DNA of 64,000 nt. It comes from a plasmid. Made by a program: the position numbers and the translations under genes. Below the pieces are notes generated by a model. That model did not search any database. It was not told where the DNA came from and worked only from the letters and a program-made list of their open reading frames with translations. The stretch lies in the NCBI RefSeq assembly GCF_054482525.1, contig NZ_JBTHVG010000003.1. One strand, 5' to 3'. Every line of letters starts with the position of its first letter. The first letter of the stretch is position 1. This document shows positions 877 through 24,118 of this stretch, piece by piece.

Positions 877-1109
877 AAGCTACCAGGTATGCACTGGTTA
901 TAACATGCTGAAAAATAAGTTATTTATCAGTGCTATGCTTAGTGCTTCTTTTACTACTGGTCTTACATCTCGGCTTAATGTGCAAAAAAGTAACTTTTCA
1001 AACGAACTCCTGACTATTCATCTGTATGCCTTTCTGGCTCAAGCGTACATGCTAGCCCATTCATTAAATGCCGTGGAGCAAGATGGTTTCGTGCGCACTC
1101 TATTCACGT

Positions 1110-1600
1110 GAATGCCTTTTGTGGATTACGCCTCTTACATTCATACAAATGCTTTTGATGTCGGTATCCCAAAAAATCATTCATTGAAATGCTTTTGTTT
1201 GCCACTGTATCCCGAGCATAGCTATGCAGTGGTATAAAAAGGCATTTTGGTGAATGGCATTAGGTCGAATGACACACAGTACAGCTTTGTTAAGAGCGAG
1301 AATGGTCCAAGACATCTATGACATTGGGCATCAGAAGGACTATGTGTTTGATATGAGATCAAAAAAATATCAGAAGCATCACAACTCCAATGGCATTCAA
1401 AGAAATGCCTTTGTTTTGTTAGTACACCAAACAACCCAAAATTCATGCAGTTATATCAAAGACTCATTCGCAAAAGGACTCAGCCAGAAAGCATTTGCTT
1501 AAATAGCATTGGCCAAAAGCATTCGAATGAATGATGTTCATATGGACAAGACAAAGTCCCACTCACGCCCAGAGGTGTAAAAGGCATTTAGATGAATGAC
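1110..1600. repeat. Iteron-like repeat cluster downstream of repA (core AATGCCTTTTG / CAAAAGGCATT in both orientations, about 8-9 copies)
   Basis: Repeated motifs seen directly: gtgaatgccttttgtgg, caaatgcttttgatg, gaaatgcttttgttt, aaaaggcattttggtgaatggcatt, gaaatgcctttgttttg, ccaaaagcattcgaatgaatg, taaaaggcatttagatgaatgac. No long ORF with coding character in this stretch. Confidence 0.55.
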
Positions 1601-2024
1601 GCACCGGCCGAGGATTGTATGTAGTTTCTCCAACTGATAGTTGCCGAACCAGGGAGCACAGTGATATGCGGCCTTCTCAGAATCAAGAGATAGATATTAA
1701 GGGAACAAAAAAGATTAGATATGAAGCTTAGTTACCTGCCCGATATCTAGTTAGAGCTTTTCAAACCATCAAAAGTGACTTTTATGCTTGAGGAGTCTCA
1801 TCAGCTTCAGGATTGAGCTTAACGTAATCTTACCCCCTCCCCTCTTTCAAACTTTTACTAAGCGTTCACTGGTACTTTTCAAAGATTATGCTTTAGGCCC
1901 CTTTGCTTAAAAATTCACCAATCGCTAAACGTTAAAAAAAGGGGGTTTATGCGAACGGAAGGATCGGAATAAAAAAGTATTATTCATTCGCGTTTACGTG
2001 AACTCAAATCTACACGGAGTAATT

Positions 2025-2378
2025 ATGGAACTTTCTTTAAATATTGGCCTTAGTGAAAAGAAATCTAACACGGCTGCACTTTTTAAAACAAAAAGCGCAA
2101 AAGTGATTTTGTTTGTTCTGCTGACCGTGCTTTTTTGCGGTCTGGCATATGCGGGTTCAGATGATGGGGCACTGGGAGATATTTGGTCATACATGAGTGA
2201 AAGTATGACTGGAGCTCCGGGCAAAATTCTGGCAGCCGCGATGTTGATCTCAAGCGTATATTTCTCTGTCCTTAAGCCTAACCCGGGCCTGGCACTGGTT
2301 TCATTATTCATGATGCTGGTAATGGCCAACGGCGAGAAAATTATCAGCACCTTTATGGATGCTGGCGTACCGCTGTAA
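2025..2378 (+). CDS. traA: Conjugative pilin precursor (TraA/TrhA-like)
   Basis: Small protein with a long leader, probable cleavage after LAYA, and a mature part with two hydrophobic segments. GGAG ribosome-binding site 7 bp upstream of the ATG at 2025 (the track ORF starts at 1998). Sits at the head of the traL-traE-traK-traB cluster. Confidence 0.5.
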   Translation: MELSLNIGLSEKKSNTAALFKTKSAKVILFVLLTVLFCGLAYAGSDDGALGDIWSYMSESMTGAPGKILAAAMLISSVYFSVLKPNPGLALVSLFMMLVMANGEKIISTFMDAGVPL

Positions 2379-2400
2379 TTTATTGTTAATCATGCATGAG

Positions 2401-2412
2401 GGGGTTCATCCC
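2401..2412. repeat. Target-site duplication (GGGGTTCATCCC), left copy, flanking IS186
   Basis: The identical 12-mer occurs immediately outside both terminal inverted repeats (2401-2412 and 3750-3761). Confidence 0.7.
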
Positions 2413-3749
2413 ATAAGCGCTAACTTAAGGGTTGAACCATCTGAAGAATGCGACGCCTCGGTGCCTCGTTAAGACGATGCCTCGCGTTCTTCAATTGCGT
2501 TTTGTAGGCTGTCAGGGATACTGTCCCACGAATGGCCACCTGTAAGCTCCAGATGACCATTTTTGTTATTCTCCACAACGAGTTAGTTCTTCTTTTCGGA
2601 TCCGGCACTTCTGGGGGGGAAATCCAGCGATGGCTGGATTATGTCGTCAATTAAAAATGCGGCGAGTAGATTAGCAAATATCCACGCTTTCGCGAGTTCA
2701 GGTTCCTTTGCACGCAAAGCATCCAGGTGCAGCAAACTTTTGAGCCGCTTAAAAGCCAGTTCAATTTGCCATCGCAGACGGTAACAATCAGCCACTTGCT
2801 CTGCTGAATATTCATCTTCCGGTAATGATGTTAGCAATAGCACATGGCCCGCTGCTTCCAGCGTTTCCGCCTGAACTACTCGTCCTTTTCGACGATTCTC
2901 GCTGAGCAGTCGGGTTTTACTGATTAATGCTTTTTCGGGAGGAAGTGATACGGCAATGAGACGTGCCGGAAAGGGAGCTCCGGCTTTTTTATTACCTGAA
3001 TTGCCTATCATTACAGTGGTTTCACCGTTCTTACCGCAATCCAGCCCGCGCAGAAAACCCATCATGTCAAAGCGCATTCCTTCTGCAGTTAACCAGCGCA
3101 ATCCTCGCCAGTGAACCCGGACGATATAATCAGCTTCTCCAAAAGCAAGTGAGCGGATACATTCGGGACGCGAACCGAATCCCCGGTCAGCAATGCGTAT
3201 CTCGTCTGCCGTTTGCGCAAATCGGTCCAGCCGTTCAGCGTCTCTGCTGTCGGTTAGCTCAAAATCAGTGAACTGACAGGTATGAGGATCATATCCCATA
3301 TGTAGTCGCCATTCAGCGCTGCCGCCCCCGGGCGCACTGATTGCTGTTCCATCGACAAGACGCAATCTCTTTCCGCTTGTACAACCCGTAACTGCGGCGC
3401 GTACAGCAAGTGTTTGTGCGGCAAGTATGCCAAACCAGTCGGCGGCATTCCGCAGCCGCTTCAGGAGAGCCACGTCAGATAATGTTGCAACGTCATGGAG
3501 CTGAGCCCATGCAGTGACTTCACGTAATGACATCCCCCCGGGGCCGTAAGCCAGCCCCAGACGTAGCAGAGTTGCAGCATCACGAATTTCGCGGCGGCGG
3601 GTTAGAGCCCCGGCATTACGTGCCGAAGTATCCAGTTCTTCGGGCTTACCAATATGGGCCAGAATTGCTGACCAGTTATCGTGAGAGTAATTCATCGGCA
3701 CGTTAAATCATATCAGGCGTAATACCACAACCCTTAAGTTAGCGCTTAT
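2413..3749 (-). mobile_element. IS186-like insertion sequence (IS4 family), about 1337 bp, with terminal inverted repeats ATAAGCGCTAACTTAAGGGTTG
   Basis: Perfect inverted repeats at 2413-2434 and 3728-3749 enclose one transposase ORF. The protein sequence matches my recollection of the E. coli IS186 transposase (MNYSHDNWSAILAHIGKPEE...). Flanked by a 12-bp direct repeat. Confidence 0.85.
2583..3701 (-). CDS. insL: IS186 transposase (DDE, IS4 family)
   Basis: 372-aa ORF filling the IS. Recognised from memory as IS186 InsL-like; the true start may be the third codon (MNYSH...). Confidence 0.85.
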   Translation of the reverse strand: MPMNYSHDNWSAILAHIGKPEELDTSARNAGALTRRREIRDAATLLRLGLAYGPGGMSLREVTAWAQLHDVATLSDVALLKRLRNAADWFGILAAQTLAVRAAVTGCTSGKRLRLVDGTAISAPGGGSAEWRLHMGYDPHTCQFTDFELTDSRDAERLDRFAQTADEIRIADRGFGSRPECIRSLAFGEADYIVRVHWRGLRWLTAEGMRFDMMGFLRGLDCGKNGETTVMIGNSGNKKAGAPFPARLIAVSLPPEKALISKTRLLSENRRKGRVVQAETLEAAGHVLLLTSLPEDEYSAEQVADCYRLRWQIELAFKRLKSLLHLDALRAKEPELAKAWIFANLLAAFLIDDIIQPSLDFPPRSAGSEKKN

Positions 3750-3761
3750 GGGGTTCATCCC
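3750..3761. repeat. Target-site duplication (GGGGTTCATCCC), right copy, flanking IS186
   Basis: Same 12-mer as at 2401-2412, immediately outside the right inverted repeat. Confidence 0.7.
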
Positions 3762-3777
3762 CCTCTCTGGATTTTTA

Positions 3778-4095
3778 ATGAGTAAGCAGAACGACGTTCC
3801 TCAGCATACCTATAGATTCCCTTTCAGGATCAACATGCCTCTACTGATTTTGTTTTGGGATGCAAAAAAAATAGGGCTTGCATTCATTCTGGTTGCATTT
3901 GGGAATATCTTCGAATGCTTCGGGTTTTCTGTTGTAGTAGCGGTTGTATATTGGATTGCGTATAACAAAGCAGCTGAGTCAGGAATAAGAGGATTGCTAA
4001 AACACAGACTCTGGTGGCTCGGTTTTTTGCCAGGTAAAGCAGTTTTTAGTAGCCGTTATTTCAACGATCCATTTATCAGAGATTTGTATTCTTGA
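3778..4095 (+). CDS. traL: T4SS protein TraL-like (VirB3-like)
   Basis: 105 aa. YRFP motif near the N-terminus and a hydrophobic core, resembling F TraL. First gene after the IS186 insertion. The track ORF start at 3748 lies within the target duplication, so the ATG at 3778 is preferred. Confidence 0.55.
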   Translation: MSKQNDVPQHTYRFPFRINMPLLILFWDAKKIGLAFILVAFGNIFECFGFSVVVAVVYWIAYNKAAESGIRGLLKHRLWWLGFLPGKAVFSSRYFNDPFIRDLYS

Positions 4096-4106
4096 TGGAG
4101 CTATGA

Positions 4107-4895
4107 ATGAAAATGCTAAGTGGCATTAACATCCCTTTTTTCAAAAAATCTAAAAAGGATGAAAACGGTGATCTTGAACAGTCATACGTAAAGAAAGATG
4201 AAAGTGCTAAGGGACGTTTTTTGGACATTAAAAAACGATTTAGCCCACAAGCTGAAGCGTCAGGTGCTGGAATTACATACAGCGCCCTGATTAATCGTGA
4301 TACAAAACTTATCCGCATTAATACTGTTTCAATAGCCGTCATTGGGTTATTGGTTGCAAAGATTCTTTTTTTCACTGACCCAGTGACGATTGTTACCCCT
4401 CCAAACATGAATGAAGAGATCACGGTTGTTGGTAACAAAGCATCGGAATCTTATAAAACACAATGGGCTCTCTTTTTTAGTACCCTTTTAGGGAATATTA
4501 ATCCAACTAATATTTCCTTTGTGACGGCCTATGTCCTCGATGCCCTTTCACCTGAACTACAGGCTAAAACGAGTGAGTCTTTACAGGAGCAGATAAATAT
4601 CATGCAGGCTCGTGGTGTTGAGCAGACCTTTAAGCCTAATGATATTTACTTTGATCCAAAAAATGACATGGTCTATGTCTGGGGTACCAAAACGACTCGA
4701 CTTGTAAATGTTCCGGACAAAACTGAATCATCGAAATGGACTTATGAATGGGTTCTCGGGATGAAAAATGGTCGCCCAAGAATTGCATATGTAAATCAAT
4801 ATTCCGGAACACCGAATATTAAAAAAATTACGATAAACGGCAAAGAGCAACTGGCAACGCTGGATAATCCGCCACCGTCTACAGGTAACAAGTGA
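4107..4895 (+). CDS. traE: T4SS protein TraE-like (VirB5/TraE family), N-terminal membrane anchor
   Basis: 262 aa, one N-terminal transmembrane segment then a periplasmic domain. Position between traL and traK. GGAG ribosome-binding site upstream. Confidence 0.55.
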   Translation: MKMLSGINIPFFKKSKKDENGDLEQSYVKKDESAKGRFLDIKKRFSPQAEASGAGITYSALINRDTKLIRINTVSIAVIGLLVAKILFFTDPVTIVTPPNMNEEITVVGNKASESYKTQWALFFSTLLGNINPTNISFVTAYVLDALSPELQAKTSESLQEQINIMQARGVEQTFKPNDIYFDPKNDMVYVWGTKTTRLVNVPDKTESSKWTYEWVLGMKNGRPRIAYVNQYSGTPNIKKITINGKEQLATLDNPPPSTGNK

Positions 4896-6166
4896 TGATT
4901 AAAAAAAAGGGCTTAGGGTTCAACGCAATTACCGCATTGATCATGCTCACGACTTCGAACTGCGTAATCGCTGAAGAATACCAATTGCCAGCAACAATTA
5001 ATAACCCGGTTGTAATGCCAGTTGGTGCTGACGGATTTCAGAATGGAGCTGCAAAAGCCATTATTCCGGGTCAAGCTGGTTCTGAACAGTCAGGTGCACA
5101 AACAAACCTTAGTGAAGCCGGTAATGCGCAGGGACAAAAACCTACAACTGATCTCCCTACCGTGCAACTTTCCCCAGCCAGCAATGCTTCGCCTGCGGTA
5201 AGCGCTATTACTGGAGCATTATCAAATAATCCTAGTCTCCCCGGATTTGACGCACAGACCCGCTCTGGTGCAATTGATAGCTATGGGAGACCAACAGGTA
5301 CCTCTTCCCAGCAGAATGCAACCAATGCGACCGCCACGTCAAAAGCCGATGAACTTTATGTCGAAGCTCGTAACCGATATAAAGAAGTTCAGCGTGTAAA
5401 TGTGCCGCCTGGTGGGAATGTGGTACTGCCAGTTTCACGAGGACTTCAAAACAGAATATCGACCAGCTTCAAGAATGCTTCTGTCAGCACTTCTACCCCT
5501 GCTGAAGAGGCAAGCATATTTGTTAATGGTGGCGATGTCTTTATTTCAACTAATACCGATAAACCAATCGGGATTATGTTGTCGGAAGATCAGGTACCTG
5601 AATCGACCTATAACCTGACCCTGGTACCGCTTGATGTTCCCGGTGCGATGATTTCAGTTACTACATCTTTAAGCCCATCTATGCAAGCCAAACGTGAAAC
5701 CTCATTGGATAAGCAAAACTATGAGGAAATGTTGGCCCGCTCCCAGTCAGAAGAACTGGCTCCATCGGATCCAAAACAAGACGATCATAAACAAAGAATC
5801 ATTGATTTATTGACTCCTGTGGCTCTTGGTGAGGTCCCTTCAGGATTCAGTTTACAACAGGACCGACTTTCTCGTATTCCTGCGTCAGAGCAGTCCCCAT
5901 GTAACTTTAATATGTATGCAAAGCTCGGTCAGAGACTGGTTGGCTCACGTGAACTTATTGATGTAATTCTTGTGAAAAACGATAAACCATACGGTCAAAT
6001 CGTTGCTGATCAGCAGTGTATGGCAGAAGGCGTTATTGCAAGTGCTTTATTTGATAAAGCATACCTGCAACCGGGAGAAGAAACAGAGCTTTACATAGTC
6101 CGGGATAAATTGTTCAAGGAACGCGAGGCCCGGGTTACAACCAGACCAAGTCTAATCAGAAAATAA
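4895..6166 (+). CDS. traK: T4SS protein TraK-like (VirB9/secretin-like) with a long low-complexity N-terminal extension
   Basis: Signal peptide. C-terminus (ELYIVRDK...) resembles F TraK (DVYVIRDG). ATG at 4895 overlaps the traE stop (ATGA). About 424 aa versus about 240 in F; the N-terminal half is rich in A/S/T/Q/N/P. Confidence 0.55.
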   Translation: MIKKKGLGFNAITALIMLTTSNCVIAEEYQLPATINNPVVMPVGADGFQNGAAKAIIPGQAGSEQSGAQTNLSEAGNAQGQKPTTDLPTVQLSPASNASPAVSAITGALSNNPSLPGFDAQTRSGAIDSYGRPTGTSSQQNATNATATSKADELYVEARNRYKEVQRVNVPPGGNVVLPVSRGLQNRISTSFKNASVSTSTPAEEASIFVNGGDVFISTNTDKPIGIMLSEDQVPESTYNLTLVPLDVPGAMISVTTSLSPSMQAKRETSLDKQNYEEMLARSQSEELAPSDPKQDDHKQRIIDLLTPVALGEVPSGFSLQQDRLSRIPASEQSPCNFNMYAKLGQRLVGSRELIDVILVKNDKPYGQIVADQQCMAEGVIASALFDKAYLQPGEETELYIVRDKLFKEREARVTTRPSLIRK

Positions 6167-13379: not shown

Positions 13380-16300
13380 TTATCCAATTTGCTCACCGAA
13401 GACTTTTAACTTATTTAACCCCCTTTATCGCCAATCTGTGATTTTCTAATGTTAGCCTACAGTTCTAGGGCCCTTGCTCCCATGATGCGAATCCTTCCAC
13501 CTAATAAAGATTAACGCCTCATTCCTGTATGCCGGTCTTACGACGCCAGTGCACGGACAATTTTTGGTCATCACAAGGCCAGGCGGGAGATTTAATCAGG
13601 GCGTGGTGTTCCTTAGCAGCAGCTGCGGCACTGTAAGCCGAAGGCGGAATTAACTCCTTTATCGCCATCTGGGGACGTCATTAGGGGTACCCCTTTTAAC
13701 TTGCTCAGGACCATTAAGCTAAAATTCCGGATAGTGATTGACGTAAGATTTAGGCTAAGCAGGTAAAGTGATCCCCGCTCCCGGGGTGACCACTTTATAC
13801 AAAAGGCCGATCGGAAGATTGTCCTTAGGGAAATATTCCTTTAACACAGCACGGGCACTTACTGCCGCTGCCGGATTTAACCCCCTTAATCGCCAAACTG
13901 GGGTACTGTCCTGATGCTGGCCTTCAGTTCTGGGCTGGGTGGCTATCACTTCCTCCCATAATGCGAAATGTAACTGCTGATACAGATTAACGTCATATTC
14001 CTGCGTGCCGGTCTGCCAACACCAGTGCACGGGCTTTTTTCGGTCATCACATTACCGGGCAGGAGATTTTATCAGGGCGTGGTGTGACTGAGCAGAAGCT
14101 GGGGCACTGTCAGCAGCTTGCAGATTTAACCCCCTTAATCGCCAAACTGGGATTCTGGTCTGATATTGACCTTCCGTGCTGGGCGGGGTTCGGTTTGCTA
14201 ACACTTACTCCCATGATACGAAATGTGCCTGCTGATACAGATTAAAATCACATTACTGCATACCGGTCTGCCGACACCGGTGCATGGGCGATTTCCGACG
14301 ATCTCAAGAACATATGGGAGATTATATCAGGGAGAGTAGTATGCCTGAGCAGCATCTGAAGGCACTGTCAGCCGCTGTCAGATTTAACCCCCTTAATCGC
14401 CAAACTGGTGTTCTGTCCTCATGCAGGCCTTCAGTTCTGAGCTGGGTTGCTATCACTTGCTCCCATAATGCGAAATGTACCTGCTGATACAAATTAACGT
14501 CGTATTCCTGTATGCCGGTCTGCCGACACCAGTGCTCGGGCTATTTTCGGTCCTAACAAGACCTGGCGAGAGATTTAATCAGGGCGTGGTGTGACTGAGC
14601 AGCAGCTGGGGCACTGTTATCCGCTTGCAGATTTAACCCCCTTAATCGCCACACTGGGGTTCAGTCCTGATAGTGTCCTTCCGTCCTGGGCTCGGTTGCT
14701 AACACTTGCTCCCATTGCGCCTGCTGATACAGATTAAAGTCACATTACTGCATACCGATCTGCCGACTCCGGTGCATGGCTTTTTCCGATAATCACAAGG
14801 ACGGACGGGTGATTTTATCGTTGCATAGTATGTCTGAGCAGCATCAGAAGGCTCTGTCAGCCACTGGCAGATTTAACCCCCTTAATCTCCAAACTGGGAT
14901 CAGTCCTGATAGTGTCCTTCCGTCCTGGGCAGGGTTGCTAACACTTGCTCCCATGATACGAAATGCGCCAGCTGATACAGATTAACGTCTCATTACTCCA
15001 TGCCGGTCTGCCGAAACTGGTGCATAGCTTTTTTCGATATTCGCATGAACAGACGCTTGATTTTTTCAGGTTGTAATATACCTGAGCAGCATCTGAAGGC
15101 ACTTTCAGTCGCTGTCAGATTTAACCCCCTTAATCGCCAATCTGGGATTTTCTGATGTTAACCTACAGTTCAAGGCCCTTGCTCCCATGATGCGAACCTT
15201 GCAACCTGATAAAGATTTAAGCTTCATTCCTGTATGCCGGTCTTACGACTCTAGTGCACGGGGACTATTTTCGGTCATAATAAGACCTGGCGGGAGATTT
15301 AATCAGGCGTGGTGTGACTGAGCAGAAGCTGGGGCACTGTCAGCCGCTGGCAGATTAAAACCCTTTATTCGCCATCTCAAGACGTCATTATGGGTAGTCC
15401 TTTTAACTTTCTAAGGACCATTAAGCTTAAACTCCGTTTAGAGAATGACGTAAGATTTAGGCTAAGCAGGTTAAGTGATCCCCGCTCCCGGGTTGAACAC
15501 TTTATTCATCGTACGAGCGAAAGATTGTCCTTCGGGAAATATTTCTTATACACCGCTCGGGCACTTACAGCCACTGGCGGATTTAACCCCCTTAATCGCC
15601 AAACTGGGGTACTGTCCTGATGCTGGCCTTCAGTTCTGGGCTGGGTGGCTATCACTTGCTCCCCTAATGCGAAATGTGTCTGTTAATACAGATTAACGTC
15701 ATTTTCCTGCGTGCCGGTCTGCCGACACCAGTGCACGGCCTTTTTTCGGTCATTACATTACCGGGCAGGAGATTTTATCAGGGCGTGGTGTTACTGAGCA
15801 GGAGCTGGGGCACTATCAGCAGCTTGCATATTTAACTCCCTTAATCGCCAAACTGGTGTTCTGTCCTCATGCTGGCCTTCAGTTCTGGGCTGGGTTGCCA
15901 TCTCTTGCTCCCATAATGCGAAATGTATCTGCTGATACAGATTAACGTCATATTCCTGTATGCCGGTCTGCCGACACCAGTGCTTTGGCTATTTTCGGTC
16001 ATAACAAGACCTGGCGAGAGATTTACTCAGGGCGTGGTGTGACTGAGCAGCAGCTGGGGCACTGTCATCCGCTTGCAAATTTAACCCCCTTAATCGCCAA
16101 ACTTGGGTTTTGTCCTGATGCTGGCCTTCCGTTCTGGGCGGGGTTGCTATCACTTGCTCCCATCATGCGAAAAGTGCCTGCTGATACAGATTAACGTCAT
16201 ATTCCTTCATGCCGGTCTGCCGACACCAGTGCTTTGGCTATTTTCGGTCATAACAAGACCTGGCGAGAGATTTACTCAGGGCGTGGTGTGACTGAGCAGC

Positions 16301-16700
16301 AGCTGGGGCACTGTCATCCGCTTGCAAATTTAACCCCCTTAATCGCCAAACTTGGGTTTTGTCCTGATGCTGGCCTTCCGTTCTGGGCGGGGTTGCTATC
16401 ACTTGCTCCCATCATGCGAAAAGTGCCTGCTGATACAGATTAACGTCATATTCCTTCATGCCGGTCTGCCGACACAAATGCACGGGCTTTTTTCGGTCCT
16501 TACAATACCGGGCAGGAGATTTAATCAGGGCGTGGTGTGACTGAGCAGCAGCTAGGACACTGTCAGCCGCTGGCAGATTTAACCCCCTTAATCGCCACAC
16601 TGGGGTTGCCTCCTGAAGTTGGGTTTCAGTTCTGGGCTAGGTTGCTAACTCTGCTCCCATAATTCGTAGTGGGCCTACTCAAGAGATTAACACCTCATAT
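13380..16700. repeat. Tandem direct-repeat array, about 14 units of about 221-259 bp (mostly 249 bp), with higher-order periodicity of about 1.7 kb
   Basis: Recurring block ...CAGATTTAACCCCCTTAATCGCCAAACTGG...GCTCCCATAATGCGAAATG...CTGCTGATACAGATTAACGTCATATTCCTG...GCCGGTCTGCCGACACCAGTGCACGG...GATTTAATCAGGGCGTGGTGTGACTGAGCAGCAGCTGGGGCACTGTCAG. Two adjacent units are identical (identical 69-aa track ORFs at 15985 and 16234, 249 bp apart). Segment 13400-13870 recurs at 15120-15580. Confidence 0.9.
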
Positions 16701-17070: not shown

Positions 17071-18324
17071 ATGAATTTACTTGAAAAGATCGCCCTCGTT
17101 GGTCAGCGCATGAAAAGCGAGCAGATTTCTCTTAAGGAATCTCTGATGGCTTCATCAAGAGTATCTGTTTCTGATGATAGTGTTGATGGTGTTGATAGAC
17201 TGATCTACAACCACTGTTTAAATAAAAAAAATCTCTCTGATTTTTTTGGGAAGTCACGAGTAACGTTCAATAAAATACTTTCGGACTTAGAAGAAAAAGA
17301 AGTTGTTGGTGCACCTATTTATCAAAACAAAAATCATCTTTACACCCGCTGGGATGTTCAAAAAATAATGGATGCCCTGGGTTATCCCAAGTACCGCGAT
17401 CATTACTTTAGCAGAGCTATTGTTACTCAGAATCATAAAGGCGGTACAGGGAAAAGCACTACATCTGTAGCTTTAGCAGTAGCAGCTGCTTTAGATCTAC
17501 AACTGAATGCACGTGTATTAATGATCGAATGGGACCCACAAGGTTCGATTGGAAGCAGCATGATTCAAAGTGTCTCAGAAGATGATGTCTTCCTTACAGC
17601 AATTGATGCAATCCTTGGAATTTATGAAGAAAATTCTGAGTATAAAAAATATTTAGATTCAGGATTCTCTGAAGAAGAAATCATCACTAATATGCCTTTT
17701 TCAACGCATCTGCCAAACTTGGACGTGATAACGGCATTTCCGACAGATGCTCGTTTTAAAGATAAATACTGGCAATGTTCTAGAGAAGAACGAACGTCTT
17801 TGTTACTACGTTTCAAGGAAGTTATCTTACCGGTACTGAAGCAGAACTATGATTTGATTATTATAGACACTCCACCTGAAGATTCACCTTTGATCTGGGC
17901 TGCTGACGAAGCGGCCGATGGGATTCTTGTCGCAGTGTCACCACGTGAATATGATTACGCCTCTACTACAGACTTCATGCTTACAATAAGTGAAAGGTTT
18001 AAACAATCACCAAGTAAGGGCGATAATTTAAAATGGTTCAAAGTTCTTGCTGTCAATGTTGATGACAAAAGTCCATATGAAAGAATAGTTTTGGATAAAT
18101 TAATCAGAACTGTTCAGGACCTTTTGATGTCCGCTAACATAAAAAATTCTGAAGCATTTAAGGCAGCTGCTTCCAAAGGGCGTACAGTGCTTGATATCAA
18201 AAAATCAGAGGAACTTTGTTCCGCAAAGCAACTTGATGTCGCAGAAGAATCTGTATTACAGGTATATCAACAATTTATAAATGAAATAAAAAGTTTTTCA
18301 GCTAAGCAAGGAGTTAACGCATGA
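17071..18324 (+). CDS. parA: Partition ATPase ParA (type Ia, with N-terminal HTH extension)
   Basis: 417 aa. Deviant Walker A (KGGTGKSTT). Size and N-terminal extension as in P1 ParA / F SopA. Stop overlaps the parB start. Confidence 0.85.
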   Translation: MNLLEKIALVGQRMKSEQISLKESLMASSRVSVSDDSVDGVDRLIYNHCLNKKNLSDFFGKSRVTFNKILSDLEEKEVVGAPIYQNKNHLYTRWDVQKIMDALGYPKYRDHYFSRAIVTQNHKGGTGKSTTSVALAVAAALDLQLNARVLMIEWDPQGSIGSSMIQSVSEDDVFLTAIDAILGIYEENSEYKKYLDSGFSEEEIITNMPFSTHLPNLDVITAFPTDARFKDKYWQCSREERTSLLLRFKEVILPVLKQNYDLIIIDTPPEDSPLIWAADEAADGILVAVSPREYDYASTTDFMLTISERFKQSPSKGDNLKWFKVLAVNVDDKSPYERIVLDKLIRTVQDLLMSANIKNSEAFKAAASKGRTVLDIKKSEELCSAKQLDVAEESVLQVYQQFINEIKSFSAKQGVNA

Positions 18325-19325
18325 GCGATGAGCAACATATCGGGAATGATAAATCTCGATATTTAAACGCACCAAAGCGGACAGAAGTCGGTCACCGTTC
18401 AGGTCTTGCGGGTTTGAAAACAGCACCTCGCATAAAAAAGTTATTCACTCTTCATAAGGGCCGAAGACTTGAAGCGGAACATGTGATTGTTCCAGCCCAG
18501 AGAGTGGAGAAGGAGACCTTAGTCCATCCAGCAAACCCACGAAATCAAGAAGCCCTTACAGATTATTCTGTTAGAGATATTCTTAAGCAGATTGAAGAAA
18601 GAGGGGTCGATACCGAAGGGATCGCTGTAAAAAGAGATGGGGTTTATTTATTAATAGAAGGAAGTCGCAGACGTTTCTGCTGTATAAAGGCAGAAAAGGA
18701 TCTCCCCCTGTGGGTACTACCGGATGAACTAACCGAAGATGATATAAATTCAATTATATCCGCAGCACAAACATCTCGAAAATTTTCATATAGAGAAGTT
18801 GGGTTTCAATTTATCAAGAAAATGGAAGAAAAGGGATTTTCTACTAATGAAGAACTCGCAGCATATCTTGGGATTAGTCATGTATCGGTAGCCAAAAGAA
18901 TCCAGGCGGCACGTATTGACGAAACATTGATCTCTTTATTCCCGGATTATGAAGGAATACCGAACTCCTATTATAGTCGCTTGTCTCGTTTACAGAAATA
19001 TGTGCAAAAAAATCTATTTCCTTTAGATGAAGTAATAGATAATGTTAAAGAGGAAACAAAAGATTTAGACATTGGAGATCTCCAAGTTGCCCAAAAAGTT
19101 GTAATGGAGAAAATCACACAATCTGTGGAAAGTGTTTGTGAAAAATCTTATTCCACAAAATGGGAAACAAGTGATCTTATTACTTTTGATAACAAAGATA
19201 AGTATGCAAGAATCAGTAAAAACAATACTGGAAGAAAAATTCGCATTGAATTCAATAGGATAAGTGCGGGTTTTATTAAGGAGCTAGAGGAGTTCATAAA
19301 AGAAAAATTAAAAGTATCAGAATAA
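18321..19325 (+). CDS. parB: Partition protein ParB-like
   Basis: 334 aa. ParB-box-like GSRRRF motif (LLIEGSRRRFCCI). ATGA overlap with parA. Confidence 0.65.
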   Translation: MSDEQHIGNDKSRYLNAPKRTEVGHRSGLAGLKTAPRIKKLFTLHKGRRLEAEHVIVPAQRVEKETLVHPANPRNQEALTDYSVRDILKQIEERGVDTEGIAVKRDGVYLLIEGSRRRFCCIKAEKDLPLWVLPDELTEDDINSIISAAQTSRKFSYREVGFQFIKKMEEKGFSTNEELAAYLGISHVSVAKRIQAARIDETLISLFPDYEGIPNSYYSRLSRLQKYVQKNLFPLDEVIDNVKEETKDLDIGDLQVAQKVVMEKITQSVESVCEKSYSTKWETSDLITFDNKDKYARISKNNTGRKIRIEFNRISAGFIKELEEFIKEKLKVSE

Positions 19326-19386
19326 ATATTGAACTGCATCTTTATGATGCAGTTCATATGATTTATATTTTTAATTTCTTGTTATA

Positions 19387-19776
19387 TTAATATGGGGTGT
19401 GCGCAGGTTCAGACATATAAGGTCTTAGTTCTATATGAACAGAAGCGCCATTCCCATCATTTACTACGTTTAAAGGTGCTTTGCCCGGCAATGACATAGT
19501 TGCAACGTCAGGTCCAGAAACAGCAAAATTATTTTCTGCTGAAGGCATTACTGTAAAAATCTTTATAGCAACATTTTCATGTCTAAATAAAGAAATCCCA
19601 AAAGTAGAACCAGCTTCGGTATTGCTCACGTCCACAACCACAGGGGTTTTTCCTAGATATTCATTAGTTAGTATGTTTTTTACTAATGCCCCTTCCGGGA
19701 CAGTATAGATACGGTATGGATATGCTAAAACTGAGTGACAAAAACATAATAAAATAACAATTAATGTTTTTTTCAT
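19387..19776 (-). CDS. Hypothetical secreted protein
   Basis: 129 aa with a signal peptide (MKKTLIVILLCFCHSVLA). Last gene of a four-gene minus-strand operon. Confidence 0.4.
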   Translation of the reverse strand: MKKTLIVILLCFCHSVLAYPYRIYTVPEGALVKNILTNEYLGKTPVVVDVSNTEAGSTFGISLFRHENVAIKIFTVMPSAENNFAVSGPDVATMSLPGKAPLNVVNDGNGASVHIELRPYMSEPAHTPY

Positions 19777-20294
19777 AGATTATCCTCATTCAAAAATAAA
19801 AGATATAACTCTTGAAAATCGTGGTTATTAATTAGGTCCGCTTTTCCGGGAAAATCGTAACTAACAGAAAATAAAAGAGAAAGAGAATCTTTTCCTTTTG
19901 CTTTGGGAGAGATTCTGCTAAAAGCACGGTTAATAAACATAAGTTGATCTTCATTGTTGAAGCAAAGTCCAAGCATTCCAACCGTAGGAACTACGAATGT
20001 GCTTACGCTGCCTGGGGGCAAAAGTTGCTTACTACGGGCATTGTAAGCACAACGACTACCACCTAGCGTTAGGCCTGAAAGCTCAATAAAACTTCTGGTT
20101 CCATTCTTGGCGACAAGCCAAACATCAGTTCCTGAACTTTCGACACGTAAAGTAACTTTTCCGTCAGTAAAGGCCTCACTTTTATTGTATAGAATAGGGT
20201 CAAAACCAACTGTCGGGAGTTCTTCGATTTTACTTTCTACTGACTGACAACCAGTCAGTAATGCAAACAATAAAAGTGTGATAACTTTAATCAT
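19773..20294 (-). CDS. Hypothetical lipoprotein
   Basis: 173 aa, lipobox LLTGC. Overlapping start/stop with both neighbours. Confidence 0.4.
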   Translation of the reverse strand: MIKVITLLLFALLTGCQSVESKIEELPTVGFDPILYNKSEAFTDGKVTLRVESSGTDVWLVAKNGTRSFIELSGLTLGGSRCAYNARSKQLLPPGSVSTFVVPTVGMLGLCFNNEDQLMFINRAFSRISPKAKGKDSLSLLFSVSYDFPGKADLINNHDFQELYLLFLNEDNL

Positions 20295-21123
20295 CCCGCT
20301 TCCTTAGATTGTTTTTGGCGCTGGTTATAAAAGATAATGATTCACCGGGGTAGAGAATTGTTTCTTTCGTCCAATAACGATAACCACCGAGGATATCTTT
20401 TCTTTTCTCAATATAAACCGGTTCAGAAAATTCTAAATGTTGATATTTCGGAAGAGATAAGATTTTATATTTTACTTGTCCAACTAAGAGGTAATTCTTC
20501 TCTTTAGGATTGATGGTTACTGAATTACCAACACTTTGAGGTATGTTAAGTTTTTTTATATTTAGATCAGAATCGTCAGGAACGGACACTTGATCATTAG
20601 ATGTCTTTCCGGGAAGAGTAAACCCTTTACCCTGATCCGGTCCAAAGATGGCAATTACATCTTTGTTGTTTCTTGTGATCGAAACGATAGCCTGAAGGGG
20701 CGTATTAGCAAGGTCATTTATAAACGATATAGTTATACTTGATTTAGGCTCGACCCAAATAATGCTTTTTCCGGATGTGCCTTCGCTTAATGCAATTTTT
20801 TCATTTAGTAAGATTTTATTTTTGGCAATGATATTATACTCAAGTTTCGGTATCACCATAAAAAGTGATTCTTTATTTGAAACATTCATGATTTCTAAGA
20901 AATTGGTTTTGGTCATGCTGGTCTTTAGAACAGGCCTATATTTACCATTTATAAACCACCTTCCGTTTATAAGCTCCGCTTTAGCAGATATAAGTGAATC
21001 ACTTTTCTGAGCGGCAGAAGAAAAAGCATCTTTTCTTTGCTCTTTCTCTTGATGTGGTGCAGCTGCTGCGTGAAGATGCAAAAGTAATGTTGAAATTGAG
21101 ATAATCTTCCATTTTATCTTCAT
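20287..21123 (-). CDS. Hypothetical secreted protein
   Basis: 278 aa, N-terminal signal peptide. Overlaps both neighbours. Confidence 0.4.
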   Translation of the reverse strand: MKIKWKIISISTLLLHLHAAAAPHQEKEQRKDAFSSAAQKSDSLISAKAELINGRWFINGKYRPVLKTSMTKTNFLEIMNVSNKESLFMVIPKLEYNIIAKNKILLNEKIALSEGTSGKSIIWVEPKSSITISFINDLANTPLQAIVSITRNNKDVIAIFGPDQGKGFTLPGKTSNDQVSVPDDSDLNIKKLNIPQSVGNSVTINPKEKNYLLVGQVKYKILSLPKYQHLEFSEPVYIEKRKDILGGYRYWTKETILYPGESLSFITSAKNNLRKRDD

Positions 21124-22067
21124 CTTGTTACCTCAATGTTGTTTTCAATCGAATCGAGTTCTAACGGATAGGTTTTAAGTGAATAAAACTTGTTTGTTGT
21201 TTGTATTAGCTGATGACACAATAAAACTGGATTGTTCTTCATGATTATTTCTACTAATGTAAGTGCTGGTGAGTCAGTTGGCGGTATACCCGGAGCAACT
21301 ATTACCTGGTCTTCTAATTTTGACATATAGAGTGATCCAGTATTTATATGTAAACAATTACCGATCAGTACTGGAAGATTGTTTTGAGTACGACCATGGG
21401 CTTTTCGAATGCTGTTTACAGGATTCCTACCTAGGACCATAAGGTTGACGTCATTTATCATCATTGGTATTACGGCATGGTCCATACCGAATAGAAACTG
21501 GCTCTGAAAAATATTCACATTGGCATAGTTGAATGCTTGAAGCGCATTATAAGTATCAGTGAATGATGTGCGGATAGGGGCGTAATCAGAAGGGCAAACC
21601 CCAATTTTTATATCGCCTTTGAGTAAAATCTGCATCATCGTACCAAGCTGGGTATTAAGAAGTTTTTTTATCTCTTCCTCTAAATAGTAACGATTTACAG
21701 CTTTATGCCACTTTCCGCCCATTACACACCATCTCTCATTGAGGTATGTGCTGGGGTAAAATGTTCTCCGGTCTTTGTTTAATGGTAACAATTTTTTTAA
21801 CATTTCTTCTCCGGCTCCGGCAGCTGAGAAATGCCTCACAAAACGTCCATCGAAAAAGCCACTGTTTATCGCCTTCATCAACTCTATGGGTTCCGGCCCA
21901 TAGTCAAACAAATTTCCAGTAGAGAAAATTACTATCTCTTCTTCTGGCTTTGTAACTGATTGAATCAAGTTGCACAGCGCAGAGTAATGTCCATGAGGAT
22001 CTGCCAGAAAGAAAATCCTTCCCGAGAAGTTTGTAAGGTCTATAGTTTGGACGTGCTCAGCTGCCAT
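21120..22067 (-). CDS. Calcineurin-like (PPP-family) phosphoesterase homologue, possibly catalytically degenerate
   Basis: 315 aa. N-terminal FFLADPHGHY aligns by eye to the GDxHG motif of lambda-type PPP phosphatases. The GDxVDRG and GNHE equivalents look substituted (GNLFDYG; AGAGEE). Confidence 0.45.
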   Translation of the reverse strand: MAAEHVQTIDLTNFSGRIFFLADPHGHYSALCNLIQSVTKPEEEIVIFSTGNLFDYGPEPIELMKAINSGFFDGRFVRHFSAAGAGEEMLKKLLPLNKDRRTFYPSTYLNERWCVMGGKWHKAVNRYYLEEEIKKLLNTQLGTMMQILLKGDIKIGVCPSDYAPIRTSFTDTYNALQAFNYANVNIFQSQFLFGMDHAVIPMMINDVNLMVLGRNPVNSIRKAHGRTQNNLPVLIGNCLHINTGSLYMSKLEDQVIVAPGIPPTDSPALTLVEIIMKNNPVLLCHQLIQTTNKFYSLKTYPLELDSIENNIEVTR

Positions 22068-22430
22068 AAATTCCTCTACGTATGTTTACATCGATGATAC
22101 GGTATTTCGAGCTATGATTTTTTTACATAAAGGCGTCATTTTGGATTCTAAGCCTAAGGACCTTTGTTACTTACTGGTAAAGGCTCCAGTCCTGGCTCTC
22201 AAACAGTTCATACTTAGGATGCAAAGTAACTTTCTGATTATAATTGGCTCCTTTATAAACATGTTTACTTCATGAATACAGGATATTTAACGGTAATGTA
22301 TTTAAAATGGAAGGATGCTGAAATAACATAGAGTTACGTATTTTTTTAATAGTGTTGATGTTGATAATAGGTCACCATTAATGTATAAAGTTAATATCTA
22401 ATATGGTCCTATTAATAAAAGAGAGTTTTT

Positions 22431-23468
22431 ATGGCTGAACTATTAAAATCTGAAAGTCCTGTTTCACAATCATTGCAGGATATCACTGAAGCTTTAAAAA
22501 TCGTTGTCGATGATGGAAGTAAAGCTGCAAAACTGGTTTGTCTTAATGAAAGAAACGAATTAGTTCCCTTGCTCACACAAAATAGTTTTGTTCCAGATTT
22601 CCGTGTTCGCCATGAGGGTCTCAATCCTTTTAACTATCTTATTGATGGGCTGGAAAGGTTTTCGCATCACAGCGAATCTAGTAACTCACTGGAATCGACT
22701 GATGTATCTCACCAATACGATGAAATTAGCCGGTTAAATGTTCACCATGCACTTCATGCTTCTGGTTTAGTTCCTCAGGATGTTCACCTCTTTGTTACTT
22801 TACCTCTTAGCCAGTTCTATACTGCTTTAGGGGAAACGAATATTGAAAATATTCAGAGAAAAAAAGATAACCTGATGAAACCAGTTGAGCGTTATCTTGA
22901 CGGTAAACGCTATTCTTTCAACGTTTTGTCTGTGACTGTTTTCCCTGAATCTTTACCAGCTGTGACCCGGGCAGATGAAATTGAGGATATTGCTTCATTT
23001 GAATCAAGTTTGGTAATTGATCTTGGTGGTACTACTCTTGATGTTGCAAGTATTACTGGGCAATTAGAACAGATTTCGAAAGTAAAAGGTTTTGACCGTA
23101 TTGGTTGTTCTATTGTTTACGATGAGATCAGCAGGTATCTTGAATCTGAGAAACTGAATACGAGTAATGCTTACATTCATCATCTTGTTGATAATCGTCA
23201 TGATAAATCAGCTTTGAAGGTTGCAGAGGACAAGCGTGACGGTGTTTTTGATGCGGTAAACTCTGCGGTACAGAAGTTGCAAAGTAAAGTAATCAGAGCG
23301 GTTACACAAGTCGAAGAGAGGCCTCATAATGTTTTCCTTGTTGGGGGAGGTTCATATCTCATCGAAACAGCTATTCGTAAACATTTTGAAACGGCTAAAG
23401 TTATCATGGTAGACAATCCGCAGTTCGCATTATCTTTGGCAATTGCTGATACTATTTATTCAGAATAA
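22431..23468 (+). CDS. parM: Actin-like segregation ATPase ParM/StbA (type II partition)
   Basis: 345 aa. Actin-fold phosphate motifs (IDLGGTTLD; VFLVGGGSY). Followed by a small putative adaptor gene. Confidence 0.75.
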   Translation: MAELLKSESPVSQSLQDITEALKIVVDDGSKAAKLVCLNERNELVPLLTQNSFVPDFRVRHEGLNPFNYLIDGLERFSHHSESSNSLESTDVSHQYDEISRLNVHHALHASGLVPQDVHLFVTLPLSQFYTALGETNIENIQRKKDNLMKPVERYLDGKRYSFNVLSVTVFPESLPAVTRADEIEDIASFESSLVIDLGGTTLDVASITGQLEQISKVKGFDRIGCSIVYDEISRYLESEKLNTSNAYIHHLVDNRHDKSALKVAEDKRDGVFDAVNSAVQKLQSKVIRAVTQVEERPHNVFLVGGGSYLIETAIRKHFETAKVIMVDNPQFALSLAIADTIYSE

Positions 23469-23479
23469 TGAGCTAGAAC

Positions 23480-24118
23480 ATGGCTAAAAACCCTATCTCA
23501 AATAAGGCAGATAACGACCGGATTCAGATCCGGTCTTTCTGGATATCCGAAAGAAAAGCACCCTATGTTTATAGTTTCTTGAAAAAAACAGAACTTTCTC
23601 ATAGGGGTGACCAACTGGATTTAATTAGGTCGGCTATTAGTACCGGGTTGGTATTGAATAATTTATTTCCTGACTTGGCAAATTTTATAAATGGTTTAAA
23701 CGAAAGATTAACACTTGCAGATCTTAATAGGTTTCTGAATGATGGAAATACTATAGATACTGAACCTAAGCCTCCTATTAATGTATTGCTAGAGAATGTC
23801 TTAGATCAAAAGTTTAAGGAGTATTTAACACCTCTACAATTAGATAATTCAAAGCAGGATTCTGTTTCTGTAAAAGAAACCTTCCTTGTACAAAAGGAAC
23901 ATGCCTGCTTTGGTGTGAAGATTGAAAATGAGGGAAGCGATACCTCTATACCATCTGAAAGCCCACTTTCTTCAGATGCATCCAAAATTTCAAAAGAAAA
24001 GTCCATTTCCGCTGTGGTGCCAGTGCTAGAAAAAGTATCGGATGAAAATCAAACCGCCTCCATAAGCATAAAATCTAAAGCTAAGGCAAACAAGCGACTG
24101 GCAACTTTGGCAAGATAG
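23480..24118 (+). CDS. parR: Putative ParR-like centromere-binding adaptor
   Basis: 212-aa ORF immediately downstream of parM with a K/S-rich tail. Assignment by position only. Confidence 0.4.
   Translation: MAKNPISNKADNDRIQIRSFWISERKAPYVYSFLKKTELSHRGDQLDLIRSAISTGLVLNNLFPDLANFINGLNERLTLADLNRFLNDGNTIDTEPKPPINVLLENVLDQKFKEYLTPLQLDNSKQDSVSVKETFLVQKEHACFGVKIENEGSDTSIPSESPLSSDASKISKEKSISAVVPVLEKVSDENQTASISIKSKAKANKRLATLAR

What the first reader, a model, noticed from the sequence alone, without database searches (positions are those of the whole stretch)
19387..22067. Operon of a possibly catalytically degenerate PPP-phosphatase homologue plus three secreted or lipoprotein genes, between the two partition modules
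Four overlapping minus-strand genes are transcribed divergently from parM. The first encodes a calcineurin-like phosphoesterase whose GDxHG motif is retained, while the second and third metal-binding motifs appear substituted, so it may be a pseudo-enzyme. The other three products have signal peptides, one with a lipobox. A cytoplasmic phosphatase-like protein coupled to envelope proteins is an unusual combination, with possible roles in surface exclusion, envelope signalling or phage defence.
Basis: partly seen in the sequence, partly recalled or inferred. Interest (0 to 1): 0.55.

Follow-up and report, generated by a model that had tools for sequence, protein, structure and literature searches.

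The report
IncHI plasmid Z operon: trhO-eexB-trhZ
These four genes are the already described "Z operon" of IncHI resistance plasmids, which boosts conjugation and blocks entry of related plasmids; the one fresh point is that its "phosphatase" TrhO has lost nearly all catalytic residues in every known relative, so it probably works as a non-enzymatic adaptor.

Summary
Four minus-strand ORFs (21120-22067, 20287-21123, 19773-20294, 19387-19776) overlap by 4, 8 and 4 nt. Each has a Shine-Dalgarno site, and the set ends at a hairpin (19330-19356). They run divergently from parM and sit between ParAB and ParMR.

The window is an IncHI2 plasmid backbone, 100% identical to hundreds of sequenced plasmids. 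The genes are orthologues of R27 R0015-R0018, named trhO, eexB, a lipoprotein gene and trhZ. This is the published Tra2 "Z operon". In R27, trhO and trhZ raise transfer frequency. EexB is an outer-membrane exclusion protein. TrhR/TrhY activate the operon and HtdA counteracts them.

EexB is predicted to be a cysteine-free tandem cupredoxin, so it has no copper site.

No defence signature was found. The operon is already known; the dead-enzyme detail is a modest refinement.

The parts
22068..22430 (.). 363-bp intergenic region between trhO and parM. It presumably holds the divergent Z-operon and parM promoters.
   Evidence: No strong sigma-70 consensus was found here. That fits an activator-dependent promoter, and R27 literature says TrhR/TrhY activate the Z operon. 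It aligns with the R27 intergenic region (mean column identity 76%). An IS903B copy sits in this region in pE92-1 and three other plasmids.
21120..22067 (-). trhO: 315-aa cytoplasmic lambda-phosphatase-fold protein with a degenerate active site (predicted pseudo-phosphatase).
20287..21123 (-). eexB orthologue: 278-aa exported exclusion protein, predicted copper-free tandem cupredoxin.
19773..20294 (-). R0017 orthologue: 173-aa lipoprotein.
   Evidence: 57.2% identical to R27 R0017 'lipoprotein (Z)'. The lipobox is LLTG-C16. C16, C82 and C111 are invariant in 8/8 homologues. No family hit was found.
19387..19776 (-). trhZ: 129-aa exported protein with a possible PEGA-like beta domain.
   Evidence: 77.5% identical to R27 R0018/TrhZ, and UniRef names the exact sequence TrhZ. 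It has a signal peptide ending VLA|Y. It contains the literal motif VPEGALV. The Pfam PEGA hit is weak (E 0.049; 3 of 7 homologues at E<=0.1).
19330..19356 (.). Inverted repeat (11-bp stem, 5-nt loop) between the converging ends of trhZ and parB. It is a likely bidirectional terminator.
   Evidence: The terminator-like scan finds it on both strands.

Best explanation
This is the IncHI2 copy of the Tra2 'Z operon' of IncHI conjugative plasmids, with gene order trhO, eexB, R0017-type lipoprotein gene, trhZ.

Shown by homology and literature:
- The genes are orthologous to R27 R0015-R0018.
- In R27 the four genes are co-regulated.
- trhO and trhZ raise transfer frequency.
- EexB is an outer-membrane exclusion factor needed in both donor and recipient.

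Shown here:
- TrhO is a cytoplasmic protein with the lambda-phosphatase fold.
- Its binuclear metal centre is dismantled. Site M2 is entirely gone. The bridging Asp is an invariant Asn. The general-acid His is Gly. The His186 position is a near-invariant Arg.
- The same dismantling is seen in every member of the small TrhO family, while the protein stays under purifying selection.

Inferred:
- TrhO acts non-catalytically, as a binding or adaptor subunit, in the way Vps29 or the DNA-polymerase B subunits use the same fold. It would use the remodelled pocket (invariant N52, D55, E87, H121) to bind a partner or a phosphorylated ligand.
- The three exported proteins act at the outer membrane or periplasm next to the mating-pair apparatus. 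These are a Cu-less tandem-cupredoxin EexB, a disulphide-containing lipoprotein and the small beta-rich TrhZ. They would assist mating and mediate exclusion through like-with-like contact.
For: Plasmid identity:
- 100% DNA identity to IncHI2A/MOBH/MPF_F plasmids.

Orthology and synteny:
- Identity to R27 is 72/42/57/78% in the same order and divergent from parM.
- R27 gene names and the (Z) operon label come from the supplement of PMC7366339. That table also shows joint 8-17x derepression in the htdA mutant.
- The trhO/trhZ effect on transfer is stated.
- EexB properties are stated.
- UniRef names the exact proteins TrhO and TrhZ.
- The same four-gene module occurs in IncHI1B and in metagenomic relatives beside trhC/trhV and htdA/rsp-like genes.

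TrhO fold:
- Foldseek E 1.5e-10.
- hhalign E 4e-32.

TrhO degeneracy:
- Three independent alignments agree.
- All TrhO-family sequences examined lack the catalytic set. Eleven of the twelve next-closest PPPs keep all ten catalytic or phosphate-binding residues; the twelfth, P0035, keeps eight, with N75I and R162K.

Selection:
- pN 0.18 against pS 0.86 for trhO.
- 13 residues are invariant across 16 sequences.

Against: - No biochemical test exists. D23, H25, N52 and D55 could still hold one metal ion in this particular protein, so a residual or altered activity cannot be excluded.
- The primary R27 papers (Lawley 2003; Gunton 2008) could not be read here. Their results are taken from later papers' summaries and from my memory of the abstracts.
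- The trhO mutant phenotype in R27 could partly reflect polarity on downstream genes. I could not check this.
- The EexB and TrhO structures are predictions from shallow alignments (8 and 12 sequences).
- The proposed envelope complex and the TrhO binding partner are pure inference.
Confidence: 0.85

Rival explanations
1. TrhO is a working metallophosphoesterase or phosphodiesterase, as current annotation says. It would use a mononuclear or otherwise non-canonical site, and it would regulate conjugation by dephosphorylating a protein or hydrolysing a nucleotide signal.
For: It is annotated 'metallophosphoesterase' and 'phosphodiesterase'. D23, H25, N52 and D55 of the M1 half-site are present in the IncHI2 and IncHI1 proteins. 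The pocket residues N52, D55, E87 and H121 are invariant.
Against: All three M2 ligands are lost (N75, H139, H186), as are the general acid H76 and the phosphate-binding R53. H25 itself is Y, C, Q or R in relatives, and D23 is N in two. No shared catalytic set survives across a family that is otherwise conserved. The nearest active-type PPPs keep the ligand histidines and aspartates in all 12 cases, and 11 of 12 keep all ten catalytic residues.
Confidence: 0.1
2. The operon is an anti-phage defence or envelope-stress signalling cassette that merely sits inside the transfer region.
For: A cytoplasmic enzyme-like protein paired with envelope proteins superficially resembles some defence cassettes.
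Against: None of the four proteins hits PADLOC. The module is a fixed part of Tra2 in every IncHI lineage examined, beside trhC/trhV and htdA/rsp. In R27 it is driven by the conjugation regulators, and mutants affect transfer and exclusion.
Confidence: 0.03
3. trhO is a decaying relic of a once active phosphatase gene. It would have no function of its own and be retained only because it carries the promoter-proximal part of the operon.
For: Catalytic residues are lost. Polarity could explain the R27 insertion phenotype, though I could not check this.
Against: The full-length ORF is kept across lineages whose synonymous sites are saturated (pS 0.86), while pN is 0.18. Thirteen residues are invariant and about 25 nearly so, including the replacement residues N52 and R214. 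The predicted fold is confident. It is the second most conserved of the four proteins.
Confidence: 0.04

Closest known systems
R27 (IncHI1) Tra2 Z operon: trhO (R0015), eexB (R0016), R0017 lipoprotein, trhZ (R0018)
   Same: The gene order, strand relation to parM, product sizes, export signals and overlapping junctions are the same. Identity is 72/42/57/78%. The genes sit in the same Tra2 neighbourhood: trhC, parAB, Z operon, parMR, htdAFK, rsp.
   Different: This is the IncHI2 lineage. EexB is the most diverged product (42%). No experiments were done on this copy as far as the held literature shows.
Bacteriophage lambda Ser/Thr phosphatase (NinI, PDB 1G5B) and E. coli PrpA/PrpB
   Different: Four of the six metal ligands are replaced, as are the general acid and a phosphate-binding Arg. 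An extra ~55-residue C-terminal beta region is present in the model (residues ~262-315). It sits in a conjugation operon, not a phage nin region.
Non-catalytic calcineurin-fold scaffolds (Vps29; B subunits of DNA polymerases alpha/delta/epsilon)
   Different: There is no sequence relationship beyond the fold. These are eukaryotic or archaeal complexes. No partner of TrhO is known.
SufI/FtsP and multicopper oxidases (for EexB)
   Different: EexB has two domains rather than three. No sequence-level match was found. EexB is reported to be in the outer membrane and to act in exclusion.
F-plasmid TraT surface exclusion
   Same: Both are outer-membrane exclusion factors encoded within an F-type (MPF_F) transfer region.
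   Different: TraT is a lipoprotein acting only in the recipient. EexB is reported to be needed in donor and recipient. It has a type I signal peptide here and an unrelated predicted fold.

Membership tests
IncHI Tra2 Z operon (trhO-eexB-R0017-trhZ) | Orthology of all four products to R27 R0015-R0018, in the same order | tested here: met
   72.1, 42.1, 57.2 and 77.5% identity with matching lengths and order. UniRef names the exact sequences TrhO and TrhZ.
IncHI Tra2 Z operon (trhO-eexB-R0017-trhZ) | Location inside the Tra2 transfer region of a MOBH/MPF_F IncHI plasmid | tested here: met
   Flanked by trhK-trhC and htdA-rsp-trhF-trhN. Typed IncHI2A, MOBH, MPF_F.
IncHI Tra2 Z operon (trhO-eexB-R0017-trhZ) | Single transcription unit controlled by TrhR/TrhY and HtdA | not testable with these tools
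   The sequence is compatible: overlapping genes, no internal terminator and one terminal hairpin. Regulation is known only for R27 from the literature.
IncHI Tra2 Z operon (trhO-eexB-R0017-trhZ) | Effect on transfer frequency (trhO, trhZ) and exclusion activity (eexB) | not testable with these tools
   Reported for R27. Not tested for this IncHI2 copy.
PPP-type metallophosphoesterase (lambda PP / PrpA / PrpB; Pfam PF00149) | Calcineurin-like alpha/beta sandwich fold and detectable sequence homology | tested here: met
PPP-type metallophosphoesterase (lambda PP / PrpA / PrpB; Pfam PF00149) | Motif I GDxHG (ligands Asp20, His22) | tested here: inconclusive
   The window protein has ADPHG, so D23 and H25 are kept. 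Within the family the His is Y, C, Q or R, and the Asp is N in two members.
PPP-type metallophosphoesterase (lambda PP / PrpA / PrpB; Pfam PF00149) | Motif II GDxxDR (bridging Asp49, Arg53) | tested here: not met
   The motif is GNLFDY. N52 is invariant in 16/16 family members. R53 is Y, W or N in nearly all members; one metagenomic member is ambiguous, with R and N, because of a local insertion.
PPP-type metallophosphoesterase (lambda PP / PrpA / PrpB; Pfam PF00149) | Motif III GNHE (ligand Asn75, general acid His76) | tested here: not met
   The motif is GAGE (A85, G86). Only G84 and E87 are kept.
PPP-type metallophosphoesterase (lambda PP / PrpA / PrpB; Pfam PF00149) | Ligand histidines of motifs IV and V (His139, His186) | tested here: not met
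   P159 and R214 occupy these positions.
PPP-type metallophosphoesterase (lambda PP / PrpA / PrpB; Pfam PF00149) | Metal-dependent phosphoester hydrolysis | not testable with these tools
   Needs purified protein.
Anti-phage defence systems (PADLOC models) | Match of any component to a known or candidate defence protein model | tested here: not met
   No hit at E<=1 for any of the four proteins.
Multicopper oxidase / cupredoxin (for EexB) | Cupredoxin beta-sandwich domains | tested here: met
Multicopper oxidase / cupredoxin (for EexB) | Copper ligands (type 1 site Cys plus His; trinuclear-cluster His pairs) | tested here: not met
   The IncHI2 and R27 EexB proteins contain no Cys, and the whole proteins contain 4 and 1 His respectively.
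Bacterial lipoprotein (for the 173-aa product) | Lipobox [LVI][ASTVI][GAS]C at the end of a signal peptide | tested here: met
   L-T-G-C16. The Cys is invariant in 8/8 homologues.
PEGA domain (PF08308, for TrhZ) | Significant match to the PEGA profile | tested here: inconclusive
   E 0.049 for the window protein. Three of 7 homologues reach E<=0.1 and none reaches 0.001. The literal PEGA tetrapeptide is present.

The most novel reading that the evidence does not exclude
The Z operon would be built from two 'dead enzyme' scaffolds. TrhO would be an obligate pseudo-phosphatase, derived from a lambda-PP/PrpA-like enzyme, that boosts IncHI conjugation by binding a partner rather than by catalysis. 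EexB would be a copper-free tandem cupredoxin that mediates like-with-like exclusion at the outer membrane together with the lipoprotein and TrhZ. That would make TrhO a bacterial, plasmid-borne counterpart of Vps29-type inactive calcineurin-fold adaptors. It would also mean that the 'metallophosphoesterase/phosphodiesterase' label on well over a thousand resistance plasmids is functionally misleading.
Probability: 0.55. Interest if true: 0.45.

Novelty: already known. Interest (0 to 1): 0.3.

Why it matters
IncHI2 and IncHI1 plasmids are major carriers of mcr-1, mcr-9, tet(X4) and carbapenemase genes. A near-identical copy of this 3.1-kb region occurs in 1,127 plasmid records. TrhO relatives occur in 1,978 records.

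The operon itself is established biology, so the finding does not reveal a new system.

The useful residue is a corrected expectation. TrhO should not be treated as an enzyme target. Its contribution to transfer frequency is more likely through protein or ligand binding, and that changes which experiments make sense: partner hunting and point mutants of N52, D55, E87 and H121, rather than phosphatase inhibitors. The predicted cupredoxin-like architecture of EexB gives a first structural handle on an exclusion factor that is reported to act in both donor and recipient.

Tried and rejected
Family and database searches that gave nothing decisive:
- PADLOC gave no hit for any of the four proteins, so the defence reading was dropped.
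- NCBIfam and PHROGs gave only weak PrpA/PrpB and NinI hits for TrhO and nothing credible for the other three. The FusF, dearomat_had and Rz-spanin hits are far below cut-offs or cover only the signal peptide.
- Pfam gave nothing significant for EexB or the lipoprotein, and only a weak PEGA hit for TrhZ.
- Profile searches of the EexB and TrhZ alignments against PDB sequences found nothing.
- Rfam found nothing between 13000 and 24600.
- No sigma-70 consensus promoter was found in the trhO-parM spacer, and short repeats there are unconvincing.

Literature limits:
- Lawley et al. 2003 (PMC145343 or its DOI) is not held.
- Gunton et al. 2008 is not held, so I could not determine which gene is eexA. 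The R27 supplement names only eexB.

Ideas considered and rejected:
- That the position between ParAB and ParMR is functionally meaningful. ParAB is absent beside the operon in L004 and L005, and neither par module is listed next to it in the IncHI1B plasmid's (incomplete) gene table.
- That trhO is a decaying relic.
Full report
**1. The observation**

- 21120-22067 (315 aa)
- 20287-21123 (278 aa)
- 19773-20294 (173 aa)
- 19387-19776 (129 aa)

The junctions overlap by 4 nt (ATGA), 8 nt and 4 nt (ATGA). Each start codon follows a Shine-Dalgarno-like GAGGA, GAGG, AGGAAG or GAGGA.

The consensus scan finds no terminator-like site on the minus strand inside the operon. One 11-bp-stem hairpin lies at 19330-19356, between the converging ends of the last gene and parB.

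ParA and ParB (17071-19325) lie on one side and ParM and ParR (22431-24118) on the other, all on the plus strand. The operon is therefore divergent from parM across a 363-bp spacer. The description is correct.

**2. Where the window comes from**

The 3.1-kb region is 100% identical to hundreds of plasmids of Escherichia, Salmonella, Enterobacter and Klebsiella. In total 1,127 records match, and 681 are at least 99% identical. A representative is typed IncHI2A, MOBH, MPF_F.

The neighbourhood is the IncHI Tra2 region. In order it reads trhK, htdO, trhB, htdT, trhV, trhC, parAB, the four genes, parMR, htdA and two further genes, rsp, trhF, trhW, trhU, trhN, trhI.

**3. What the four genes are**

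Plasmid R27 (IncHI1) has the same four genes in the same order, divergent from parM. Identities to the window products are 72.1, 42.1, 57.2 and 77.5%.

The supplementary expression table of PMC7366339 names them as follows, all four flagged as the Z operon:
- R0015: trhO, 'phosphodiesterase'
- R0016: eexB, 'exclusion protein'
- R0017: lipoprotein
- R0018: trhZ

In that table all four rise together (8.3, 12.1, 17.1 and 16.0-fold) in the htdA mutant at 25 C. This supports co-regulation.

The same paper states that TrhR and TrhY activate the F, H, AC and Z operons and that HtdA counteracts them. [quoted passage not shown]

A review summarises Lawley et al. 2003 as showing that trhO and trhZ increase transfer frequency. 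My memory of that abstract agrees: disruption of trhO and trhZ severely reduced transfer of derepressed R27. I could not open the paper.

PMC11493245 summarises Gunton et al. 2008. [quoted passage not shown] EexA and EexB are needed in both donor and recipient.

UniRef names the exact window sequences 'IncH1 plasmid conjugative transfer protein TrhO' and '...TrhZ'.

The operon is therefore an already described part of IncHI conjugation biology.

**4. How old and how fixed the module is**

A Klebsiella IncHI1B plasmid carries TrhO (267 aa), two unnamed genes and trhZ in the same order. Identity to the window is 27-39%. The module there lies next to htdA and traV, and no par gene is listed beside it, though that plasmid gene table is incomplete.

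A profile search of 1.84 billion representative proteins found only six full-length TrhO-type representatives at E<1e-30. After those it runs into ordinary 210-290-aa PPP phosphatases.

Every TrhO-type gene for which flanking DNA could be fetched is divergent from a parM homologue. Where the contig reaches far enough (L004-L007 and L009) it is followed by the EexB-like and lipoprotein genes, and in L004-L007 also by the TrhZ-like gene. Rsp-like/htd genes lie on one side in L004-L007, and trhC/trhV follow directly on the other in L004 and L005. The ParAB pair is present in only some of them.

The location 'between two partition modules' is therefore a lineage-specific accident.

**5. TrhO as a pseudo-phosphatase**

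Sequence homology to the lambda-phosphatase/PrpA/PrpB group is weak for the single sequence:
- Pfam E 7e-5
- PrpB model E 2e-5
- NinI phrog E 1e-7
- 1g5b E 0.0015

At profile level it is decisive. hhalign gives probability 99.9% and E 4e-32 over 206 columns.

The lambda sequence I used was checked against NC_001416.

The catalytic roles are established knowledge for lambda PP (PDB 1G5B). The metal ligands are Asp20, His22, Asp49, Asn75, His139 and His186. His76 is the general acid, and Arg53 and Arg162 bind phosphate. These positions are the invariant or nearly invariant columns of my alignment of 15 canonical PPPs.

Three alignments made by different methods agree on the mapping:

| lambda PP residue | TrhO residue |
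|---|---|
| D20 | D23 |
| H22 | H25 |
| D49 | N52 |
| D52 | D55 |
| R53 | Y56 |
| N75 | A85 |
| H76 | G86 |
| H139 | P159 |
| H186 | R214 |

The whole M2 site, the bridging carboxylate, the general acid and one phosphate-binding arginine are gone.

Motifs IV and V are lost as well. The 'retained' motif I is not a family feature: H25 is Y, C, Q or R in relatives, and D23 is N in two of them.

In the same alignment, 11 of the 12 next-closest PPPs keep all ten residues. The twelfth, P0035, has N75I and R162K.

**6. TrhO is not a decaying gene**

Between IncHI2 and IncHI1 the synonymous sites of trhO are saturated (pS 0.86), while pN is 0.18.

Across 16 family members, 13 residues are invariant: L11, G16, G51, N52, F54, D55, G84, E87, W113, G117, G118, W120 and H121. 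About 25 more are nearly invariant, including R214.

The replacement residues themselves (the 'TGNxFD' Asn, and the Arg at the His186 position) are conserved. This points to selection for a remodelled pocket. TrhO has no signal peptide or hydrophobic segment, so it is presumably cytoplasmic.

**7. The three exported proteins**

All three keep their export signals in 7-8 divergent homologues.

EexB (278 aa):
- No sequence-level family was found.
- Its predicted structure (pLDDT 72.9, pTM 0.70; all-beta after a disordered N-terminal ~40 residues) matches two consecutive cupredoxin domains of multicopper oxidases.
- Mature EexB of IncHI2 and R27 has no cysteine and very few histidines. It cannot hold the copper sites. 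It is a second 'enzyme fold without the chemistry' in the same operon.
- This rests on a prediction from eight sequences.

The 173-aa product:
- It has a canonical lipobox (LLTG-C16).
- Two further cysteines (C82, C111) are invariant in 8/8 homologues, suggesting a disulphide.

TrhZ (129 aa):
- It has a signal peptide and the literal motif VPEGALV.
- The PEGA profile match is weak (E 0.049; 3 of 7 homologues at E<=0.1). I leave that as inconclusive.

EexB is the most diverged product (42% between HI1 and HI2). TrhO and TrhZ are the most conserved.

**8. Mechanism, with the steps marked**

Shown by orthology and literature: the operon is an accessory conjugation and exclusion module under TrhR/TrhY-HtdA control.

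Shown here: TrhO cannot be a canonical binuclear phosphoesterase, and it is under purifying selection.

Inferred:
- TrhO acts as a cytoplasmic adaptor.
- EexB, the lipoprotein and TrhZ act together at the outer membrane or periplasm.
- Exclusion works through like-with-like contact. This fits the reported need for Eex proteins in both partners.

**9. Rivals**

- An active non-canonical enzyme: about 0.1.
- A defence or envelope-signalling cassette: about 0.03. There is no PADLOC hit and the module is fixed in Tra2.
- A functionless relic: about 0.04.

**10. Novelty and score**

The feature is already known as a genetic unit with published phenotypes. What I could not find in the held literature is any statement that TrhO is catalytically degenerate family-wide, or that EexB has a copper-less cupredoxin architecture. 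Current records still call TrhO 'metallophosphoesterase' or 'phosphodiesterase'. I could not read the primary papers, so I cannot claim priority for these points.

Interest is 0.3. The finding is a sound observation on a clinically important plasmid family, but the system is not new.

Noticed in passing
window 13853-16691: A large tandem array with period 249 bp, 11.6 copies and 73% matches (TRF score 2471). It fills an ORF-poor 3.8-kb gap between trhC (ends 13234) and parA (starts 17071). No ORF of 100 aa or more lies there and there is no Rfam match. G+C is higher (0.48-0.51) than in the flanks. It may be the centromere or incompatibility repeats of the ParAB module.
   Followed up: partly
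window 22068-22430 (equivalent in L012 3069-4497): In pE92-1 and three other plasmids (hits H1-H4), an IS903B copy is inserted in the trhO-parM spacer, about 140 bp upstream of trhO. All four Z-operon genes stay intact. The insertion could uncouple the operon or parM from their promoters.
   Followed up: partly
L002 12185-12208 (R27): RefSeq annotates R27 trhO with an 8-codon N-terminal extension (MQFQKEAF). The ATG conserved with IncHI2 and preceded by AGAGG lies 24 nt downstream and is the more likely start.
   Followed up: partly
L006 6945-7766 and L007 6912-7718: Some EexB homologues have a lipobox-like Cys at the end of the signal peptide (LFSC|A, LAVC|S). The IncHI2 and IncHI1 proteins instead have a type I cleavage site. 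The mode of membrane attachment may therefore differ between lineages.
   Followed up: no
L005 10462-10962 and L009 3497-3994: In two distant relatives a YdjM-family gene (PF04307) on the opposite strand lies after the lipoprotein gene. In L005, the one complete case, this places it just before the trhZ-like gene, so the four-gene unit is not contiguous everywhere.
   Followed up: no
window 1-5200: Composition is uneven at the start of the window: G+C reaches 0.46-0.50 at 2-4 kb, against 0.40 on either side. The comparison plasmid pMCR1-PA carries sul2, aph(3'')-Ib, aph(6)-Id, blaTEM-1 and IS26 directly upstream of trhK. I did not check whether the window has the same resistance island.
   Followed up: no
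window 21120-22067, residues ~262-315 of TrhO: TrhO of IncHI1 and IncHI2 has a C-terminal extension of about 55 residues, predicted as three beta strands. It is absent from lambda phosphatase and from the 267-aa IncHI1B TrhO. Its role is unknown.
   Followed up: no
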